Source: Candidatus Freyarchaeum deiterrae
GTDB taxonomy: Archaea; Asgardarchaeota; Jordiarchaeia; Jordiarchaeales; Jordiarchaeaceae
Direction of reading: 5' to 3'
Length of the DNA: 64,000 nt
Assembly: GCA_037305845.1 (NCBI GenBank)
Contig: CP147778.1
Span: 1,728,001 to 1,792,000 of the forward strand
The first letter of the stretch is position 1. Each line of letters starts with the position of its first letter. The notes under the pieces are model-generated. The model did no database searches. It was not told the origin of the DNA and saw nothing but the letters and a program-made list of their open reading frames with translations. Positions 15,016 to 48,757 of the stretch are shown here, in pieces. The translations under genes were made by a program, and so were the position numbers.

Positions 15016-15318
15016 TTATTTTGCTGTTTTTCTTTTCAAAATAATTAGTCTTAATTTTTTCTCATCGATCCGAAATACGTTTTTAATAATTGAAATTACC
15101 GATATTGGAATATAGATATTCCCTCTCTCATCTTTCGTCAGTCTCTGAAGGAGTTCTTCGGATTTATTTGTCTTTGCTAGAATAGCCTGTATTCTACCAC
15201 TTTTCTTATCAATGACTAAATCTACTATCTGCCCCACTTTCCTCCCGAATTCATTTACTATCTCTCTATTAATGATACTGTGTAGTAGCTCTTTAGACAA
15301 TGCCACACCCCGTTTCAT
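15016..15318 (-). CDS. PRC-barrel domain protein
   Basis: IINREIVNEFGRKVGQIVDLVIDKKSGRI pattern. Confidence 0.8.
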   Translation of the reverse strand: MKRGVALSKELLHSIINREIVNEFGRKVGQIVDLVIDKKSGRIQAILAKTNKSEELLQRLTKDERGNIYIPISVISIIKNVFRIDEKKLRLIILKRKTAK

Positions 15319-15518
15319 TTATGATTAAAAAGATAGTGGCATACCTTTTTAATAAAATTTTGTGAAGTGAAGCAAAATTTGGTTTCAGGGAAACCTACAA
15401 TAATATAATTTAGTACTGGTTCAAAAATTGGGAATCTGCAGCATCCACTTTTCTCTCTTCATTGATTTATTTAATTGGGAAATGTTTAATTTCATATTAA
15501 ATAATCATTTAATGACGT

Positions 15519-16112
15519 TTGATTTTACATATTCTTGAGGATATGGTCTTGGAAGAATTTCGGATCGTTCTTGTACCAATAGGTGAAATCGATAAAAATC
15601 TACTTAAGAAACTACAGGATGAACTCAGCCTTATATTCCATCCTTTAAAAGTCACGATTTCAGAACCAATCTTGATACCTAAAGGCGCCTATAATTCTAA
15701 TAGGGGACAGTATAATTCTTCACCTTTTTTAGAGGCTTTGAGAAAACTTGTGGTTGATGAACACTCAAAATTCCTAGGTATAACCTCAGTTGATCTATTC
15801 ACACACGGTTTAAACTTCATATTCGGCCATGCGATTTTGGACGGTGGTGTTTGCATAATATCTACTCACAGACTTGAACCTGAATTCTATGAACAACTTT
15901 ATAATGAAAAAATTTTTGTTGAGCGTTCTATCAAAGAAGCGGTTCACGAGTTAGGACACATCTTCTCTCTTCAGCACTGCCAAAATCCGCGCTGTGTAAT
16001 GTGTTTTTCAAATCACATATTAGATACCGACCGAAAACGAAAAAATTTTTGCGAGAAGTGTCAATCCCAAATTATGAAAAACATTGATTTCATAAGGAAA
16101 GCCAACAATTAG
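15519..16112 (+). CDS. amzA: archaemetzincin Zn metalloprotease
   Basis: RGQY, LNFIFG, HELGHIFSLQHC, CVMCFSN, FCEKC. Confidence 0.9.
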   Translation: MILHILEDMVLEEFRIVLVPIGEIDKNLLKKLQDELSLIFHPLKVTISEPILIPKGAYNSNRGQYNSSPFLEALRKLVVDEHSKFLGITSVDLFTHGLNFIFGHAILDGGVCIISTHRLEPEFYEQLYNEKIFVERSIKEAVHELGHIFSLQHCQNPRCVMCFSNHILDTDRKRKNFCEKCQSQIMKNIDFIRKANN

Positions 16113-16316
16113 ATAACTGATTAAACTAATTATTCCGCTAGATCTCCTTGAAGAGCATTTGATTTTGTCTTCTTTTAAAAGCTTTTTAAAGTTTAAAGCT
16201 GCTTAATGAATATTTGTTTAATGCTTAATTACGTCCAAAAAATTATAATAATTTTATCAAGGGCAAAACTAAAAAATAGGCGCTTGCAATACATTTTAGT
16301 ACTGAGCACAAAATTT

Positions 16317-16389
16317 GGGCGTATGGTCCAGTGGTTATGACACTGCGTTCACATCGCAGTAATCCGCGGTTCGAATCCGCGTACGCCCA
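16317..16389 (+). tRNA. tRNA-Val(CAC), intronless, CCA not encoded
   Basis: GGGCGTA/TACGCCC acceptor, CTGCG-TTCACAT-CGCAG anticodon arm, TTCGAAT T loop. Confidence 0.95.
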
Positions 16390-16517
16390 CATAACATTTT
16401 TTCTGAGAAATCTTTCATCTATTAAAAACTAAATTAGCTTCAGTTCTTTGAGTTTGTTACTATTAAATTTTGTTTTCCAAACTTGGTTTAAGACTTAACA
16501 AAACAGGGAGTAGTAAG

Positions 16518-16793
16518 TTATGGCAAATCTTGTTGTCCGAGTCCAGTTAAGTACCACTGGTGCGGCTTTTCTTGGGTTTTATCTACTATGCCCTCTTTTT
16601 TCATACTTCTGAGTTGTTGCCGTACTCTTGCGTATGACATGTTCAAGTTCTCTGCTATTTCACTAACAGTTTTTGATTTTTGTCTAATTTGCTTCAGTAT
16701 TTGAGTCCTAGTTTCTATTCCTGGTGTAACATTCTTCTTTTTTCTTAAAACCGCCTTAGCCTCATGTAACCTTTTTTTCCAAATCGGCGACAT
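16518..16793 (-). CDS. small ArsR-like winged-HTH protein
   Basis: TRTQILKQI..KTVSEIAENLNMSYARVRQQLRSMKKEGIV, W.LTG.GQ. Confidence 0.75.
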   Translation of the reverse strand: MSPIWKKRLHEAKAVLRKKKNVTPGIETRTQILKQIRQKSKTVSEIAENLNMSYARVRQQLRSMKKEGIVDKTQEKPHQWYLTGLGQQDLP

Positions 16794-16890
16794 TTTTACC
16801 CTCTAACTAATTTTTCAGGGGATTCTATCTAAATTTTTCTATTTTAAAATTAAAATTTTTAGTTTAAACTTTCTGTTATAGTTAAGAATA

Positions 16891-35036: not shown

Positions 35037-35233
35037 AATTCTATTACTCCTTTTTTTAGTTAATAACTGAATTTATTTAACTTTATGATTTCACCATTAA
35101 GTAGCCTTTTAAAAATATTAAATTTCATATTTGTTAGTATATAATAAGACCTTAGTTTTGCACCCATTAGGTTAAAGATTTATTTTACATTACATAATAG
35201 TTGACAGTTGACTTACTTCAATGGAGGTTGTTC

Positions 35234-36727
35234 ATGTCTAAATGGCCTTTTATTGCGGGCGACTACTTTGTTGGAAACGAAAAATCTGCTATTGCCGTAG
35301 TTACTTGCGGATCTTACGAGTTACCAAAAGAGTTAGCTAAGCTGAGTAATAAAATAGCAATTGTTGGTTTCTGTGAAACTGAAAATGATGGAATAGCAAA
35401 GATTCTACAAAACCTAGCTTCTAACCCCTATGTTAGAATACTTATTATCTGCGGTGAAAGAGTGGTTGGTCATGAACCCGGACAAACACTCATATCGCTC
35501 TACAATAATGGGATTGATAAAAACTACAAAATCAAAGGGAGTGAGGGAACTATCCCCATTCTTCACCCAAACTATTTTCACGGAGATGATCCGAATAAAT
35601 TTGTTGAAAGATTTCAAAGACAAATCATCAATGTCTTAGACGCCAGGGGAGAAACTGACATTGAAAAAATAATCTCTTTCATCAATGAGTTTGATGAACA
35701 AAATCTCTCTCCCTTTCCTGAGGATCCTATCCTTCCTTTAAGACCCAAAGTCGAATACGATTGGGATACAGGGGTAAAGCGATTTCTAGACGAAAACAGA
35801 TTCTATTTTAATAAGGGCATACCTCTGTTAAATCCTTTAATATTTACTGGACAATTGAAAGTTTATGATATCGCAGGAATTAAGATAGGCGGGCAGAGAG
35901 GCGAGTATCCTATAATTTTGGCTGGTACCATGTTTTACAGGGGAGATAAATTAGTAAGTAATCACGATGAAGGCCTTTTTGATAAAACTAAGGCCGAGGA
36001 GCAAATTAGAAAGCAAGACGAAAACTCATTAAAGTACGAACTTCCTGCAATTGTACACATCGTAGGAGAGACTACTAAAGCTTTAACAAATTATCTTCTA
36101 TTTGTCGCGGATTCTACAGATTCACCAATAATTATCGATTCACCCATTTTAGAATCAAGAATAGAAGCGATGAGCGTAGCCAAAGATACGGGGCTAGATA
36201 GTAGAGTAATATACAACTCAGTGATTAGCGCGGATAAAAAAGAAAAAAACCTAATAAACGAAATTGGAACAATAGAATATTCCATAGTTTTACCCTTTGA
36301 TGTAAAACTAACCTCAAGGATTAGCAGACTTGAGGAAATACTGAAATTTGTCGGAGACGCAATCAAAAATCCGATCATCGATCCTGGTGTCTCTATTCTA
36401 GGAGAAGGTTCGCTAAGCGCTTTGCATGCGGCTTGGTTGCTCAAAAATTATTATGGTTACCCCGTGTGTATTGGAGTGCATAACTTACAGTCTAGAATCA
36501 CTGAAAGTAAGAAGGAATTAAAAGAACTCGATTTCTCATTTGATTATGCTCTACCTTCCTTTTATGGAATTGATATAAATCTTTACGGTCCAATAAAAAA
36601 CGCAGATAGTATATTCAGAGAGGTAGCAGCTGTTGAAGCTGCAATTGCGGATGAGAATGTAAATACCATTGGAGTTTCTCCTAAACCTCCTCATCCCTAC
36701 TATGCTGTGAACCTTGGTCGTGAATAA
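35234..36727 (+). CDS. soluble MtrA (corrinoid-binding)-MtrH (methyl-pterin methyltransferase) fusion
   Basis: N-terminal WP...GDY.VG, CETENDGI.K...N..SNP.VR, GHEPGQ (MtrA Co-ligand His). C-terminal YDIAGIKIGGQRGEYP..LAGTMFY, IYNS, LYGPI (MtrH). No TM anchor. GGAGG before ATG 35234. Confidence 0.88.
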   Translation: MSKWPFIAGDYFVGNEKSAIAVVTCGSYELPKELAKLSNKIAIVGFCETENDGIAKILQNLASNPYVRILIICGERVVGHEPGQTLISLYNNGIDKNYKIKGSEGTIPILHPNYFHGDDPNKFVERFQRQIINVLDARGETDIEKIISFINEFDEQNLSPFPEDPILPLRPKVEYDWDTGVKRFLDENRFYFNKGIPLLNPLIFTGQLKVYDIAGIKIGGQRGEYPIILAGTMFYRGDKLVSNHDEGLFDKTKAEEQIRKQDENSLKYELPAIVHIVGETTKALTNYLLFVADSTDSPIIIDSPILESRIEAMSVAKDTGLDSRVIYNSVISADKKEKNLINEIGTIEYSIVLPFDVKLTSRISRLEEILKFVGDAIKNPIIDPGVSILGEGSLSALHAAWLLKNYYGYPVCIGVHNLQSRITESKKELKELDFSFDYALPSFYGIDINLYGPIKNADSIFREVAAVEAAIADENVNTIGVSPKPPHPYYAVNLGRE

Positions 36728-36729
36728 AA

Positions 36730-38004
36730 ATGAGTTTTTACGGTCCATATTTGATTCGAACTAGAAGCATAGATGTTGCATGGAGAAGCTGTATCAACAC
36801 AATTATTGAGAAGGGAATAAAACAAACAACTGAAGATAAAAGGCAAGAGACCAAAGAAACATTTTGTGCAACAATCCACATAAGTGATTGGCAAAGCGGG
36901 AAACTTGTTCCAACAAATTATATTGGACTAAGTGAGGATCTAATTCTCGAAAATTATATTCCACAGTACCTTAGTTCCGAAAGAGGAGAACACATATACA
37001 GCTATGGATGGGCAATGCGTAAAAGGTTCATGTTTAATCAATTAGACTACATCAAAGATCAGTTAAGCAGTGGAAAGAGTGTGGCATTCGCCCAATTCTG
37101 GAACCCCGCAACAGACATCACAAGCACAAATCCACCCTGTATAAATATAGTTCTTTTTCATAAGATAAATTCTAAAATTCACTCAACCATATACCTTAGA
37201 AGCAATGATATGGCAAGAGCCTACCCAGACGATGTTGCAGGTGTTTACACTGTATTTTTAACTGAGGTTTCGAGCAGATTTGGTGGAAAAAAGGCTATGG
37301 GCACCATAACTACAATCTCTGGATCTGCACACGTATATGAAACTTCTATCAACGAAATTAAACAAAGCTCTTTCGGCTCAATATCCGCTTCCAACTCTAA
37401 TCCAAAAATTAATGAAGAAAATTTGGCTGGACCGGTACTCTTCCGGTCGCACAATTTAAAAGGCCTTTTACACGAATTAGAGGTCAAGTTTCCTAAATAC
37501 TCCAAGCCTCAGGGAAAACAAAATTACTATCTATATTTCGGTTTCAAATTGGAAGAAATAAATCTAGAGTTAAAAGAATTTGAGAATCAAGCGGAAAAAA
37601 TTGTACATGGCGCAGAAAATCTCGGAAAAGCTCTAAGGTTCTATAAAGCTAAAACGGACGATGGAGAACCAGTAACAATTGATCAAATAGAATTGGCTAA
37701 AAGAAAATTAGAGGAATCAAATCAAAGCAGGAGAATAATTATTACGCCTAATAATCCTTGGATAAAAGGGTACGACCTAAATCCTTTAATTATACAATTT
37801 TTGTTAAGGCAAGGTCGCCTATTTACTTCCGTGCTTTTCGCAGATTACTCGATAAAACATATCCTGTCGGGAATTTACTTAATTAAGGCAATTCAAAATG
37901 AAATGCTGAATGGAAATAAATACAGTTTGGGGCCTATGGCGTTTTTCTTCATGCCCGCGAATAATGGCTCTGAAACTGTAGACTTCTCAGACATACTTAG
38001 TTAA
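36730..38004 (+). CDS. two-domain thymidylate-synthase-fold protein (catalytic N-domain plus degenerate C-domain)
   Basis: YSYG, FNQLDYI, WNP..D...PPC(137), LRSND(157-160), SAHVY. The second domain has DQIE...L.....SRRIII..NP and IQFLLR but no Cys or RSxD. Confidence 0.85.
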   Translation: MSFYGPYLIRTRSIDVAWRSCINTIIEKGIKQTTEDKRQETKETFCATIHISDWQSGKLVPTNYIGLSEDLILENYIPQYLSSERGEHIYSYGWAMRKRFMFNQLDYIKDQLSSGKSVAFAQFWNPATDITSTNPPCINIVLFHKINSKIHSTIYLRSNDMARAYPDDVAGVYTVFLTEVSSRFGGKKAMGTITTISGSAHVYETSINEIKQSSFGSISASNSNPKINEENLAGPVLFRSHNLKGLLHELEVKFPKYSKPQGKQNYYLYFGFKLEEINLELKEFENQAEKIVHGAENLGKALRFYKAKTDDGEPVTIDQIELAKRKLEESNQSRRIIITPNNPWIKGYDLNPLIIQFLLRQGRLFTSVLFADYSIKHILSGIYLIKAIQNEMLNGNKYSLGPMAFFFMPANNGSETVDFSDILS

Positions 38005-46369: not shown

Positions 46370-46951
46370 ATGATAATCAAAACTGTTGAGGAGGGACGCC
46401 ATTTCATAGCTGTTTTCGGCCTGGAAACATCAAGAATTGATTTACCCCTTCTTCTTAATGATATAAGTGAGTTAAGTAGAGAAACCGGTGTAACCATACA
46501 ACTTTTTGATTCTTCTCTACTTGCTTCTTGGGAGCATCTTTTTTTTGGGGCTTTGAATGCTCTGAGAGCTTTTAGTCATTGTAAAAATATTTCAAATAAC
46601 TTGTCTGTTGAATGCTTACTCTACACTTCCGGTCAAAGACAGATTAGCGTAGCGGTAAAGAATTTTGGAGTGAAGCCTGACAGTAGAAACATTGGAGTTA
46701 TCCTAATAGGTAACGCGCAGGGTCTTCTTCATGAGGTTCATAAAAAAGTATTGTTAATAACCAAAGGCCTGGAAAATGATACTGTTTTGTTAATCAATGA
46801 CAGGGAAAAATTTGATAGTATTCGTAGTTTTTTCCGAATCACAGAGACCGAGTTAAGCACAATTTGTGATTTGGATGAATGGAGTTCCTGTGTTGAAGCG
46901 TTAATTAAATACTGTATTGAGAGATCCTCATTACTAATTTTGCAGAAATGA
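46370..46951 (+). CDS. cgi121: KEOPS subunit Cgi121
   Basis: EHL, NISNNLSVE.LLY.SGQRQI..A...FG. Confidence 0.88.
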   Translation: MIIKTVEEGRHFIAVFGLETSRIDLPLLLNDISELSRETGVTIQLFDSSLLASWEHLFFGALNALRAFSHCKNISNNLSVECLLYTSGQRQISVAVKNFGVKPDSRNIGVILIGNAQGLLHEVHKKVLLITKGLENDTVLLINDREKFDSIRSFFRITETELSTICDLDEWSSCVEALIKYCIERSSLLILQK

Positions 46952-46993
46952 TTGTTCAGGATGGCTTCGTATTGAAGTAAAAGCATGGATACT

Positions 46994-47629
46994 CTATTTT
47001 TTAATTGCTATTAGTTTTTCTATAGATTGGCGACTTGTTTGACCCTCGCGGAGAATAATGGGTGGTTTTCGAGTTAGATCAATAATTGTGGAAGGTTGAT
47101 CACTGGAAGTTTCCCCACCGTCTATTATCATATCTATATTTCTTCCAATTTGTTCTTGAACTTGTTGTGCGTTCATTGCTGAAGGTTCGCCTGAAATGTT
47201 GGCGCTTGTTCCTACTAAAACACCATCGAGACACCCAGCCAATAATTGTGGGACCTTGTGAGAAGGTAGTCTAATAGCTATATTGTCTCTGTTTCCTGTG
47301 ACGATTCTGGGTATTTTAATGCGGGTTTTTAGAACCAGAGTTAATGTACCTGGCCAAAAGCTCTTCGAAAGTAAATCGGCCTCTGGAGTAAATTCTGCTA
47401 TTCTTCTGGCAACACTTTCATCCGACACAAGTATTGGCAGCCCTAGTTCTACTTTTCTCTTTTTTACTTTCAATAAATTTTCTACCGCATTGATGTTAAA
47501 TGGATCAGCTCCCAAACCGTAAACCGTGTCAGTTGGATATGCCACTAATTTTCCTTTTCTGAGCAATTTTCCTGCTTCTTTTATGATCTCCATATCTGGG
47601 TTTTCTGGTTCTATCCTCACTTTTCTCAA
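46994..47629 (-). CDS. L-threonylcarbamoyladenylate synthase (TsaC/Sua5 catalytic domain)
   Basis: YPTDTVYGL, K.R, FWPG.LT, TSANISG, STIID, LREG. Confidence 0.92.
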   Translation of the reverse strand: MRKVRIEPENPDMEIIKEAGKLLRKGKLVAYPTDTVYGLGADPFNINAVENLLKVKKRKVELGLPILVSDESVARRIAEFTPEADLLSKSFWPGTLTLVLKTRIKIPRIVTGNRDNIAIRLPSHKVPQLLAGCLDGVLVGTSANISGEPSAMNAQQVQEQIGRNIDMIIDGGETSSDQPSTIIDLTRKPPIILREGQTSRQSIEKLIAIKK

Positions 47630-47716
47630 TCTCTGTACCAGCTCCTATATCTCAATTAAAAGGAAACTGTAATAAGTCACTTTTTACTAACGAAAATTAA
47701 ACTCTTTATTCCCTTT

Positions 47717-48757
47717 TTGAGGTTTGTGAAGTTGGAGGCTGTAATACTTGCTGCGGGTAAAGGTGAACGGATGGGCGCTCTTTCCAAGTTTATCCCTAAG
47801 CCAATTATTCCCATAGCCAACCGTCCTATAATTGAACACTTAATTCTGGCGTATAAAAAAGCTGGTATTTCAGACTTTATAATTGTAATTGGGCACCTCG
47901 GAAATCAGATAAGAAATCAATTGAGAGATGGATCTCATCTGGGAGTATCAATAAGGTACAAGCGTTCCCAAAACTATGAATTAGGACCCATACATTCCCT
48001 ACTCGCAGCTGAGAATGAAATTTCTACAAATGAATTTTTTGTGAGTCCCGCTGATTTCATAGTAGATCCGAGGGCGATTCAAACTATAAAGAAAAGTCAC
48101 TCAAGAAAGGGCGTAACAGTGGCTGCGGATATGAGCTCCAGCTCTAAATCTGGAACTACCCTATACACTTGCCCAAAAGACCAGAAATTTGGTCGAGTCT
48201 CTGGTTTTTGTGAACCGGTTTTAAAGGGGGGGGCGCCACACCTATGTGTAAGTCTTCTAATATGCAACACTTCGATTTTTCAGTACATTTATGAGGCGCT
48301 CGGAAATGGATCAAACATACTTTTGGATGCTTTAAATCTTCTTATTCAGCAAGGCCAATTGGTATGTTTTATCGATGTCTCTAAAAATTTTTGGTTCGAT
48401 GTGGACACTGTCTCAGATTTACTTCAAGCAAACGAATTTATGCTTAAAAGAAGACTCATACCTCAAAATAATTTCTATGTTAAAGACTCTAAACAAGTGG
48501 GAGGCCCACTAAAGAAGGAATTTAAAATTGATTTGGATAAAACTTCTACCATTAGTGGACCTGCTGTCCTCGGACTCAACTGCCATATTAGCCCTGGATG
48601 TAGAGTGGGTCCTTTTGTATCTCTTGCTTGCAAGAGTGAGATTGCTTCCGGGGCAACTGTTCAGAATTCACTGCTTTTCGGTAATGCAGTGGTAGAAGAA
48701 AATAATCACCTCTCCAAGGCGGTATTATTTAAAAACCTATTATTAAAATCTGCATAA
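47717..48757 (+). CDS. sugar/polyol-phosphate nucleotidyltransferase with C-terminal beta-helix
   Basis: ILAAGKGERM, PKP, WFDVDT, hexapeptide tail. Confidence 0.8.
   Translation: MRFVKLEAVILAAGKGERMGALSKFIPKPIIPIANRPIIEHLILAYKKAGISDFIIVIGHLGNQIRNQLRDGSHLGVSIRYKRSQNYELGPIHSLLAAENEISTNEFFVSPADFIVDPRAIQTIKKSHSRKGVTVAADMSSSSKSGTTLYTCPKDQKFGRVSGFCEPVLKGGAPHLCVSLLICNTSIFQYIYEALGNGSNILLDALNLLIQQGQLVCFIDVSKNFWFDVDTVSDLLQANEFMLKRRLIPQNNFYVKDSKQVGGPLKKEFKIDLDKTSTISGPAVLGLNCHISPGCRVGPFVSLACKSEIASGATVQNSLLFGNAVVEENNHLSKAVLFKNLLLKSA

What the first reader, a model, noticed from the sequence alone, without database searches (positions are those of the whole stretch)
37138..37338. TS-fold enzyme has Asp at the base-specificity position, predicting a cytosine substrate
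Seen: C137...R157-S-N-D160-MARAYP-D-D168. The spacing matches E. coli ThyA exactly (C146, R166, N177: +20 and +11), so the Asn177 position holds Asp168. H201-V-Y203 matches the deoxyribose-binding His/Tyr. Established: Asn selects dUMP, while Asp selects dCMP/CMP as in T4 dCMP hydroxymethylase. Inference: the product may be 5-methyl-dCMP. It could be deaminated to dTMP (a cytosine-first thymidylate route) or used as a modified DNA precursor in a cellular genome.
Basis: partly seen in the sequence, partly recalled or inferred. Interest (0 to 1): 0.8.

Follow-up and report, generated by a model that had tools for sequence, protein, structure and literature searches.

The report
Asp-bearing thymidylate synthase with corrinoid partner
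The only thymidylate-synthase-type gene of this Asgard archaeon carries an invariant Asp where all ordinary enzymes have the uracil-selecting Asn, is a single-chain "dimer" with one working site, and always sits next to (and is predicted to bind) a vitamin-B12-type methyl carrier, which suggests an undescribed way of making the T of DNA.

Summary
Window 37138-37338 reads C137...R157-S-N-D160...D168...H201-V-Y203 and aligns without gaps onto solved thymidylate synthases, with D168 on the base-selecting Asn. The Asp is not a private change. All 36 family members (down to 39% identity) have it. Of 146 other archaeal-type TS relatives, 142 have Asn.

The gene (36730-38004, 424 aa) encodes two TS folds in one chain. 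The N-domain keeps Cys, RSxD and H-x-Y but lacks the Arg-Arg pair. The C-domain has lost Cys and RSxD but keeps S-R-R. This implies one active site.

In all 15 genomes that have the gene, a corrinoid-type MtrA-MtrH fusion with its His ligand intact lies immediately upstream. A complex model passes (0.91 against 0.00 for controls).

These genomes lack ThyX and any other ThyA. This genome also lacks thymidine kinase. So this enzyme is most likely the cells' thymidylate-forming enzyme.

The cytosine-first reading is only partly supported. The Asp argues for dCMP. However, dCTP deaminase and dUTPase are retained, dCMP-deaminase-fold genes are missing from most carriers, and the published methylomes show only motif methylation.

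Earlier notes from this scan on the same window raised the pseudo-dimer and corrinoid ideas. I tested them here.

The parts
35201..36727 (+). MtrA-MtrH fusion gene (corrinoid-binding domain plus methyl-pterin:corrinoid methyltransferase barrel). The true start is probably the ATG at 35234.
   Evidence: PF04208 MtrA 124 bits (residues 13-177) and PF02007 MtrH 192 bits (residues 220-492). Orthologues begin at FMSKWPF. The gene lies immediately upstream on the same strand in every locus examined.
35471..35473 (+). His91 of the MtrA domain, equivalent to the cobalt-ligating His84 of MtrA. Glu61 (35381-35383) is equivalent to Glu54.
   Evidence: Alignment to 5laa/5l8x. Roles of His84 and Glu54 are from PMC4915002. 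The GHEPGQ motif and E61 are invariant in 10 orthologues.
36730..38004 (+). Two-domain TS-fold gene (424 aa plus stop). It starts 2 nt after the MtrAH stop codon.
   Evidence: ORF list. 34 full-length homologues have the same architecture. AF2 pLDDT 88.9, pTM 0.91.
36730..37374 (+). N-terminal catalytic TS domain (residues 1-215). It lacks the Arg-Arg pair: it reads K-S-V where TS has S-R-R.
   Evidence: TIGR03283 114.9 bits, below its cut-off of 174.55. Profile alignment to PDB TS puts 'kevalaqfwnP' against 'SRRMIISSWNP'. VIA-align Z 18-22 over residues 4-224.
37138..37140 (+). Cys137, the catalytic nucleophile (P-P-C motif).
   Evidence: Invariant. Aligned to the TS catalytic Cys.
37198..37209 (+). 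R157-S158-N159-D160, the RSxD motif (phosphate-binding Arg and pterin-binding Asp in TS).
   Evidence: R157, S158 and D160 are invariant. Aligned to RSGD/RSAD of solved TSs.
37228..37233 (+). D167-D168. D168 sits at the Asn177 base-specificity position. Residue 167 is always Asp or Glu in the family.
37330..37338 (+). H201-V-Y203, the deoxyribose 3'-OH binding pair.
   Evidence: Invariant. Aligned to 'AHIY' of TS.
37435..38001 (+). C-terminal degenerate TS-fold domain (about residues 236-424). Catalytic Cys, RSxD and H-x-Y are all lost.
   Evidence: Folded alone, pLDDT is 89.3. All top Foldseek hits have the TS fold, E about 1e-7, TM 0.6. Profile against the PDB hits only TS, best E = 1e-4. 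hhalign lines up N-P-L with P-P-C, and F-A-D-Y-S with L-R-S-N-D.
37726..37734 (+). S333-R334-R335, the retained Arg-Arg pair. In TS dimers this pair reaches into the partner subunit's active site.
   Evidence: Invariant, within a domain that has only 15 invariant positions. Aligned to 'SRRIVV' of solved TSs.
37786..37788 (+). Leu353, occupying the position of the catalytic Cys in the dead C-domain (N-P-L).
   Evidence: hhalign register. Family alignment.

Best explanation
The gene encodes the only thymidylate-forming enzyme of a group of Asgard archaea: Freyarchaeia/Jordarchaeia, Atabeyarchaeia, Sifarchaeia, Njordarchaeales and LC30.

It is a single-chain pseudo-heterodimer of two TS folds with one active site. 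The N-domain supplies Cys137, R157, D160, D168 and H201/Y203. The dead C-domain supplies the R334-R335 phosphate clamp that a partner subunit provides in ordinary TS (inferred from TS dimer architecture).

It works as a complex with the co-transcribed MtrA-MtrH protein. My preferred mechanism has these steps:
1. MtrH loads a methyl group from methyl-H4MPT or methyl-H4folate onto the cobamide of the tethered MtrA domain.
2. Cys137 adds to C6 of the pyrimidine deoxynucleotide.
3. The C5 carbanion takes the methyl from CH3-Co(III).
4. Beta-elimination releases the 5-methyl product. No dihydropterin is formed.

Within this frame I put the substrate at dUMP about 0.5 and dCMP about 0.35. With dUMP, Asp168 would be protonated (helped by the always-acidic residue 167) or would act as a base.

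Shown by direct analysis or search here: the sequence anatomy, the phyletic pattern and the gene linkage. Predicted by models: the fold and the MtrAH complex. Inferred: the one-site geometry, the methyl-cobamide donor and the base.
For: **Sole candidate for making dTMP.**
- The closed 3.58 Mb genome has one PF00303 hit (this gene) and no ThyX, thymidine kinase or FolA-type DHFR. It does have thymidylate kinase.
- Among 41 related genomes, all 15 with this gene lack ThyX. The other genomes have ThyX or an Asn-type TS.

**Single-site pseudo-dimer.**
- The N-domain lacks the RR pair. The C-domain keeps an invariant S-R-R but has lost Cys, RSxD and HxY.
- Both domains have a TS fold.
- The whole-chain pTM is 0.91.

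**Link to MtrAH.**
- The full-length fusion occurs in exactly the genomes that have the TS. It is always adjacent and co-directional, while the outer flanks vary.
- The gap between the two genes is 2 nt.
- The corrinoid ligand His and its Glu partner are invariant.
- The complex model scores ipSAE 0.91 against a best control of 0.00. That mark was reached by 58 of 80 solved complexes and 2 of 110 mismatched pairs. The runs share at least 74% of contacts, and the partner pLDDT is at least 87. I know of no solved TS-MtrH complex, so the score is unlikely to be recalled from a known structure.
- MtrA-like domains are also fused to Asn-type archaeal TS in DPANN and CPR proteins.
- The genome has at least 15 B12-binding-domain ORFs.
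- The published description of this MtrAH fusion leaves its methyl acceptor 'uncertain' (PMC11291895).

**dUMP as substrate.**
- dCTP deaminase and dUTPase are retained in the carrier families.
- A CDA-fold deaminase is absent from most carriers.
Against: - Asp at this position goes with cytosine in every characterised TS-fold enzyme. Asn-to-Asp swaps switch specificity (established knowledge). So direct use of dUMP would be unprecedented.
- D160, the pterin-binding Asp of classical TS, is invariant. This fits direct use of methylene-pterin and needs no corrinoid.
- The modelled interface involves the side of the MtrH barrel and TS residues 7-24, 50-53 and 214-257. It does not include the catalytic pocket. 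The model therefore says nothing about methyl hand-over.
- The MtrA-like domains fused to TS in DPANN/CPR mostly lack the His ligand: His in 3 of 101 rows, one of which is this window's own MtrAH.
- The genome lacks CobS and CbiB. An essential cobamide-dependent step would therefore rest on imported cobamide.
- No TS-fold enzyme is known to accept a methyl group from a corrinoid.
- I could not inspect model coordinates. The reach of R334/R335 into the N-domain site is inferred, not measured.
- The carrier lineages may form one clade, so the complementarity with ThyX may reflect few independent events.
Confidence: 0.5

Rival explanations
1. Cytosine-first thymidylate route. Asp168 makes the enzyme a dCMP C5-methylase. 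The 5-methyl-dCMP is then deaminated to dTMP. The deamination could be done by an unrecognised deaminase, or by the enzyme itself on the 5,6-dihydro intermediate using the D/E167-D168 pair. Alternatively it could happen at the triphosphate level, with the retained dCTP deaminase acting on 5-methyl-dCTP. MtrAH may still be the C1 donor.
For: - The Asp is invariant in 36 of 36 family members, against Asn in 142 of 146 relatives.
- The family is one clade on a long stem: SH-aLRT 99, length 0.98, quick tree.
- The best structural neighbours act on dCMP or CMP: 9iqu Z 21.9, 9iqc 21.6, MilA 19.4-20.2, against TS at 18.9 or less.
- Established knowledge: T4 dCMP hydroxymethylase D179, and N229D turns L. 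casei TS into a dCMP methylase.
- An always-acidic residue at position 167 is family-specific.
Against: - No PF00383 deaminase was found in families f1 (0/5), f2 (0/5), f10 (0/1) or f13 (0/2, both closed genomes). The one in this genome is absent from its own genus.
- dCTP deaminase and dUTPase are retained. They would then make dUMP with no consumer.
- I did not search for a dedicated dCTP pyrophosphatase to supply dCMP.
- A 5-methyl-dCTP pool should leave non-motif 5mC in DNA. Published PacBio and Nanopore methylomes report only motifs.
Confidence: 0.35
2. A classical archaeal thymidylate synthase that takes methylene-H4MPT or methylene-H4folate directly and oxidises it. MtrAH is a neighbour for C1-pool or regulatory reasons, or acts only as a pterin-holding scaffold. 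The corrinoid plays no part in the methylation.
For: - The RSxD motif with D160 (the pterin-binding Asp in TS) is invariant.
- The closest sequence family is the archaeal TS equivalog TIGR03283.
- Asn-type TS genomes of family f7 also have an MtrAH fusion, but about 20 kb away rather than adjacent.
- The modelled interface does not include the catalytic pocket.
Against: - Co-occurrence and adjacency are strict across five families although the flanks vary.
- The corrinoid ligands in the partner are invariant.
- The complex prediction is strong.
- No FolA-type DHFR is present to recycle a dihydropterin. I did not search for dihydromethanopterin reductases.
- This reading does not explain the Asp.
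Confidence: 0.25
3. Not a thymidylate enzyme at all. The pair modifies a cytosine nucleotide for another purpose, such as a cofactor, a secondary metabolite or a minor DNA/RNA precursor. dTMP would then come from an unrecognised enzyme or from uptake.
For: - Known Asp-type TS-fold enzymes (MilA, phage enzymes) serve such roles (established knowledge; for fold likeness).
- The mtr genes were reported as weakly expressed in situ.
Against: - No ThyX, second ThyA or thymidine kinase is present in a closed genome, yet thymidylate kinase is present.
- The gene's distribution is perfectly complementary to ThyX and Asn-type TS among the 41 genomes.
- The gene is chromosomal, with housekeeping flanks.
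Confidence: 0.1

Closest known systems
Archaeal-type thymidylate synthase (ThyA, TIGR03283; e.g. the Methanocaldococcus MJ0757 type)
   Same: Same compact TS fold of about 200 aa. Same P-C nucleophile, RSxD and H-x-Y motifs. Closest family by sequence (E = 3e-33). Apparently the same cellular role, as the only TS gene in the genome.
   Different: Asp instead of Asn at the base-selecting position. Scores below the family cut-off (114.9 against 174.55). The Arg-Arg pair has moved to a fused, catalytically dead second TS domain, so the enzyme is not a homodimer of equal subunits. Has an obligate MtrA-MtrH neighbour.
Cytosine-specific TS-fold enzymes: T4 dCMP hydroxymethylase (1b5e), CMP hydroxymethylase MilA (5jnh), phage HY126 dCMP hydroxylase AfhB (9iqu)
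   Same: Asp at the specificity position (T4 D179, established knowledge). These are the best structural matches of the N-domain (Z 19.4-21.9). AfhB shows that a TS fold can pair with a non-folate co-substrate (PDB titles 9iqu and 9iqc; the paper is not in the library).
   Different: Those enzymes are phage or antibiotic-pathway enzymes that coexist with a normal TS. This one is chromosomal, conserved across five archaeal families and the only TS homologue. It is a fused pseudo-dimer linked to a corrinoid protein.
Three-module corrinoid methyltransferase systems (MtrA/MtrH of the Mtr complex; MtaABC; MetH; corrinoid-dependent 'core' methionine synthases, PMC7857596)
   Same: An MtrH-type methyl-pterin:corrinoid methyltransferase and a His-on MtrA corrinoid domain are present with their ligands intact. 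A third protein is genetically coupled and is predicted to bind.
   Different: The acceptor-side module would be a TS-fold enzyme that forms a C-C bond on a pyrimidine, not a thiol methyltransferase. No membrane Mtr subunits are present. MtrA and MtrH are one chain.
MtrA-like-TS-DUF4346 fusion proteins of DPANN archaea and CPR bacteria (e.g. P0037, annotated 'thymidylate synthase', Woesearchaeota)
   Same: An archaeal-type TS domain physically joined to an MtrA-fold domain. After the family itself, these are the nearest sequence relatives.
   Different: Asn at the specificity position. A single TS domain. The MtrA-like domain mostly lacks the cobalt-ligating His. No MtrH gene lies nearby in the one locus examined.

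Membership tests
Thymidylate synthase ThyA (PF00303 / TIGR03283) | TS alpha/beta fold | tested here: met
   Foldseek E about 1e-11 to TS chains. VIA-align Z 18-22 over residues 4-224.
Thymidylate synthase ThyA (PF00303 / TIGR03283) | Catalytic Cys, RSxD motif and His/Tyr deoxyribose pair | tested here: met
   C137, R157-S-N-D160 and H201/Y203 are invariant and aligned to the TS residues.
Thymidylate synthase ThyA (PF00303 / TIGR03283) | Asn at the uracil-selecting position (E. coli N177) | tested here: not met
   Asp168 in 36 of 36 family members.
Thymidylate synthase ThyA (PF00303 / TIGR03283) | Score above the curated equivalog cut-off | tested here: not met
   TIGR03283 scores 114.9 bits against a cut-off of 174.55. 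The Pfam domain cut-off is passed (41.9 against 24.3).
Thymidylate synthase ThyA (PF00303 / TIGR03283) | Homodimer in which each subunit gives an Arg-Arg pair to the other's site | tested here: not met
   The catalytic domain has no RR. The pair is present only in the fused dead domain. The geometry was not measured.
Thymidylate synthase ThyA (PF00303 / TIGR03283) | Converts dUMP to dTMP with methylene-pterin | not testable with these tools
   Needs an enzyme assay. Genome context fits a thymidylate role.
dCMP/CMP hydroxymethylase or methylase (T4 gp42, MilA type) | Asp at the specificity position | tested here: met
   D168.
dCMP/CMP hydroxymethylase or methylase (T4 gp42, MilA type) | Accessory enzyme that coexists with a separate thymidylate synthase, in a phage or biosynthetic-cluster context | tested here: not met
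   It is the only TS homologue in a closed genome. The flanks are housekeeping genes. It is conserved in five archaeal families.
dCMP/CMP hydroxymethylase or methylase (T4 gp42, MilA type) | Acts on a cytosine nucleotide | not testable with these tools
   Needs a substrate panel.
Corrinoid-dependent methyltransferase system (MT1 + corrinoid protein + MT2) | Corrinoid protein with an intact cobalt ligand | tested here: met
   H91 equals His84 and E61 equals Glu54. Both are invariant in 10 orthologues.
Corrinoid-dependent methyltransferase system (MT1 + corrinoid protein + MT2) | Methyl-pterin:corrinoid methyltransferase (MtrH/MeTr barrel) | tested here: met
   PF02007 scores 192 bits over residues 220-492.
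Corrinoid-dependent methyltransferase system (MT1 + corrinoid protein + MT2) | Acceptor-side methyltransferase associated with the corrinoid protein | tested here: inconclusive
   Strict adjacency and co-occurrence. The complex model scores 0.91 against 0.00. Methyl transfer to a TS-fold enzyme is unprecedented and untested.

The most novel reading that the evidence does not exclude
This would be a third mechanistic class of thymidylate synthesis. A TS-fold enzyme would take an intact methyl group from a protein-bound methyl-cobamide (MtrA), which MtrH loads from methyl-H4MPT or methyl-H4folate. The pyrimidine is methylated without methylene-pterin, without hydride transfer and without dihydropterin or flavin. 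The invariant Asp168 would then be an adaptation to this chemistry, or would mark a dCMP-first route to dTMP. It would also identify the unknown methyl acceptor of the Asgard MtrAH fusion.
Probability: 0.3. Interest if true: 0.9.

Novelty: new variant of a known kind. Interest (0 to 1): 0.8.

Why it matters
Only two ways of making thymidylate are known, ThyA and ThyX. How archaea that use H4MPT supply and recycle the C1 carrier for this step is poorly understood.

Here the sole TS-type enzyme of several Asgard lineages breaks the most reliable rule for base selectivity in the family. It has turned the homodimer into a one-site fused pseudo-dimer. It is locked genetically, and by prediction physically, to a B12-type methyl carrier whose acceptor the genome's describers called uncertain.

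Either outcome of the substrate test would be informative. If the substrate is dUMP, the Asn/Asp rule has an exception. If it is dCMP, cells have a cytosine-first route to thymine.

If the corrinoid is the donor, this is a new enzyme mechanism in central DNA-precursor metabolism, in the archaeal group closest to eukaryotes. The finding also corrects the automatic annotations 'thymidylate synthase' and 'tetrahydromethanopterin S-methyltransferase', which could otherwise be read as ordinary TS and as a remnant of methanogenesis.

Tried and rejected
- **Private change or sequencing error.** Rejected: the Asp is present in all 36 homologues.
- **dCMP deaminase partner.** The only CDA-fold gene of this genome (L020) is TadA/FCY1-like. 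It was found in 0 of 40 relatives at E <= 1e-10. PF00383 is absent from most carrier genomes.
- **Thymidine salvage.** No thymidine kinase was found.
- **A conserved third gene in the module.** The flanks differ between lineages: M24 peptidase, VTT, EMG1, LeuA, aminotransferase, NIF3 and proteasome alpha.
- **Stand-alone forms of the Asp-type N-domain.** A word-index search found only fragments of the fused family.
- **Internal duplication by profile-profile comparison.** hhalign gave the homologous register but only 1.2% probability. The TS origin of the C-domain therefore rests on the PDB profile search and on its fold.
- **Generalising the corrinoid idea from the MtrA-TS-DUF4346 fusions.** Weakened: their MtrA-like domains mostly lack the His ligand, and the one locus examined has no MtrH nearby.
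- **Literature.** No paper in the library links thymidylate synthase with MtrA/MtrH, or mentions DUF4346 or AfhB. The Asgard thymidylate study (PMC9931769) does not cover these lineages or this architecture.
- **Tree labels.** In one search some residue labels were wrong because my pattern caught an earlier R-x-x-D. I use only the clade result from that call (all 35 family rows on one side of a branch, SH-aLRT 99, quick tree). The careful tree search did not finish.
Full report
**What is at the coordinates.**

The finding lies inside one ORF, window 36730-38004 (+), 424 aa.

The protein matches Pfam Thymidylat_synt (E = 9e-11) over residues 88-212. It matches the archaeal TS equivalog TIGR03283 over residues 8-209 (E = 3e-33), but at 114.9 bits it is below that model's cut-off of 174.55.

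A family profile aligned to solved TS chains runs without gaps from the P-P-C nucleophile through RSxD to the specificity position.

**Is the Asp real and conserved?**

The organism is an Asgard archaeon of the Freyarchaeia/Jordarchaeia group, judging from source names and record titles. Its genome is a closed 3.58 Mb chromosome.

Thirty-four full-length homologues share the 390-430 aa architecture. In a 15-sequence alignment reaching 39% identity, C137, R157, S158, D160, D168, H201 and Y203 are all invariant.

An exhaustive profile search of 1.8 billion representatives found only four clusters of this family. Scores then drop sharply from 1e-89 to 1e-26 for the next relatives.

All 36 family members collected read RS[NT]D-x-[AG]-R-A-x-x-[DE]-D. 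Of the other 146 relatives, 142 read ...N, one has Asp (P0087) and three were not resolved by my pattern. Stand-alone archaeal TSs from related Asgard genomes read RSNDMxGAWPAN.

In a quick maximum-likelihood tree, all 35 family rows lie on one side of a long branch nested among Asn-type sequences (SH-aLRT 99, length 0.98). The Asp is therefore an old, fixed, family-defining change. So is the always-acidic residue before it.

**A one-site pseudo-dimer.**

The N-domain lacks the Arg-Arg pair that ordinary TS subunits donate to each other's active site. It reads K-S-V where TS has S-R-R.

The C-terminal half was invisible to Pfam, but its family profile hits only TS chains in the PDB. The best hit has E = 1e-4, on the stretch DQI...SRRIvvTpNNP. 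Folded alone, it gives a confident model (pLDDT 89.3) whose Foldseek hits all have the TS fold (E about 1e-7, TM about 0.6).

In the homologous register, this C-domain has Leu353 in place of the Cys and has lost RSxD. S333-R334-R335 nevertheless remain invariant in a domain with only 15 invariant positions. The whole chain folds with pTM 0.91.

From TS dimer architecture (established knowledge) I infer that the dead domain lends its Arg pair to the single catalytic site. I could not measure this because model coordinates are not exposed.

**The partner.**

The upstream gene (35201 or 35234 to 36727) ends 2 nt before the TS start codon. It fuses an MtrA domain (124 bits) to an MtrH barrel (192 bits).

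Its His91 and Glu61 align with His84 and Glu54 of MtrA, the cobalt ligand and its hydrogen-bond partner. Both are invariant in ten orthologues.

A full-length MtrAH of this type occurs in exactly the genomes that carry the two-domain TS. It is always immediately upstream on the same strand. The outer neighbours differ from lineage to lineage.

A complex model of the two proteins scored ipSAE 0.91, against 0.00 for the best of three controls.
- That mark was reached by 58 of 80 solved complexes and by 2 of 110 mismatched pairs.
- The three runs share at least 74% of contacts, and the partner's pLDDT is at least 87.
- My own alignments were used, so these calibration counts hold only roughly.
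- The interface joins the side of the MtrH barrel to TS residues 7-24, 50-53 and 214-257. It does not include the catalytic pocket.
- This geometry fits a scaffold on which the tethered MtrA domain could swing between two sites, but it does not show that.

The paper describing these genomes noted this 'phylogenetically distinct' MtrAH fusion. It left the fate of the methyl group 'uncertain' and does not mention thymidylate synthase (PMC11291895).

**Metabolic context.**

The closed genome has one TS-fold gene (this one). It has no ThyX, no thymidine kinase and no FolA-type DHFR, but it does have thymidylate kinase.

Among 41 related genomes, the 15 carriers of the two-domain TS all lack ThyX. 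The other genomes have ThyX or an Asn-type TS, apart from a few incomplete ones. The enzyme is therefore the only visible source of thymidylate.

Carriers keep a dCTP deaminase (142 bits against a cut-off of 92.8) and an archaeal dUTPase (171 bits against 130). Together these form the standard dUMP supply.

A dCMP-deaminase-fold gene is a different matter. The one in this genome is TadA/FCY1-like and absent from its own genus. The Pfam family was not found in four of the five carrier families, including two closed Atabeyarchaeia genomes.

Published long-read methylomes of these very genomes report five m4C motifs and one possible GATm5C motif for Freyarchaeia. They do not report global 5mC (PMC11529989).

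The genome lacks CobS and CbiB but has at least 15 B12-binding-domain ORFs. It therefore uses cobamides heavily and must import them.

**Weighing the substrate.**

For cytosine:
- All characterised TS-fold enzymes with Asp here act on dCMP or CMP.
- Single Asn/Asp swaps invert specificity (established knowledge).
- The N-domain's best structural neighbours are a phage dCMP hydroxylase (9iqu, Z 21.9, rmsd 2.4 over 200 residues) and MilA (Z up to 20.2). TS chains score 18.9 or less.

For uracil:
- The dUMP supply is retained across five families.
- No deaminase is visible to turn 5-methyl-dCMP into dTMP.
- No sign of a 5-methyl-dC pool appears in the DNA.

I put dUMP at about 0.5 and dCMP at about 0.35. 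Its downstream route through a dCMP deaminase, and its idea of modified DNA, are not supported.

**Weighing the donor.**

For a methyl-cobamide donor:
- Obligate linkage to the partner, with intact corrinoid ligands.
- The predicted complex.
- No FolA-type DHFR.
- A recurrent fusion of MtrA-like domains to archaeal-type TS in DPANN and CPR proteins.
- 9iqu/9iqc as a precedent for a TS fold using a non-folate co-substrate.

Against it:
- The pterin-binding Asp160 is invariant.
- The DPANN/CPR MtrA-like domains mostly lack the His ligand, and the one locus examined has no MtrH nearby.
- No TS-fold enzyme is known to accept a methyl group from a corrinoid.

I put the corrinoid-donor mechanism at about 0.3-0.4.

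**Comparison and novelty.**

The enzyme works like, and descends from, archaeal ThyA. It fails three membership features: the Asn, the equivalog cut-off and the symmetric homodimer. It shares the Asp with phage and antibiotic-pathway cytosine enzymes but not their accessory context.

No paper in the library connects TS with MtrA/MtrH. The Asgard thymidylate survey does not include these lineages.

Earlier first-reader notes of this scan on the same window proposed the pseudo-dimer and the corrinoid system. I reached and tested these points with tools here. Those notes are not independent evidence.

I class the finding as a new variant of a known kind, with a substantial chance of being a new mechanism.

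Noticed in passing
L038:6001-7479 (P0037) and about 100 further proteins: Proteins of about 480 aa in DPANN archaea (Woesearchaeota) and CPR bacteria (Kerfeldbacteria) fuse an MtrA-like domain, an Asn-type archaeal TS domain and DUF4346 (PF14251). The cobalt-ligating His of MtrA is mostly replaced by Ser, Ala or Thr. The one locus examined has no MtrH nearby. Their function and cofactor are unknown.
   Followed up: partly
whole genome G000: The closed genome has no CobS or CbiB homologue. It does have at least 15 ORFs with a B12-binding domain, including a run of four ORFs of about 550 aa at 3150814-3156467. This points to heavy cobamide use that depends on uptake.
   Followed up: partly
L020:1351-1785 (genome 3058307-3058735, minus strand): A 144-aa TadA/FCY1-like CDA-fold deaminase is the only PF00383 gene in this genome. 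It is absent from all 40 relatives searched, including the same genus, so it is probably a recent acquisition.
   Followed up: partly
window 35201-35236: The mechanical ORF for MtrAH starts at a TTG at 35201. Orthologues align only from F-M-S-K-W-P-F onward, so the ATG at 35234 is the likelier start.
   Followed up: partly
relatives G001-G040: Across these Asgard genomes, ThyX carriers mostly have a CDA-fold (dCMP deaminase type) gene and only a dUTPase-level DCD-family hit. Carriers of ThyA-type enzymes (Asn or Asp) have a dCTP deaminase scoring above its cut-off. This suggests two alternative, coupled dUMP-supply and TS modules.
   Followed up: no
G035:C26:26767-27354 and 46663-48255; G025:C77:35909-36502 and 15260-16861: Genomes of family f7 have a stand-alone Asn-type TS. 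They also carry a more distant MtrA-MtrH fusion (about 545 aa, 39% identity) on the same contig, but about 20 kb away rather than adjacent.
   Followed up: no
P0087 (244 aa): This is the only relative outside the fused family with Asp at the specificity position (RSNDMLEAWACD). Its source and context were not examined.
   Followed up: no
L018:938-1936 (G027), also G017 and G037: Family f9 genomes carry a 332-aa TS-like protein with an Asn and a long N-terminal insertion, in addition to ThyX. It is a possible second, non-canonical TS-fold enzyme.
   Followed up: no
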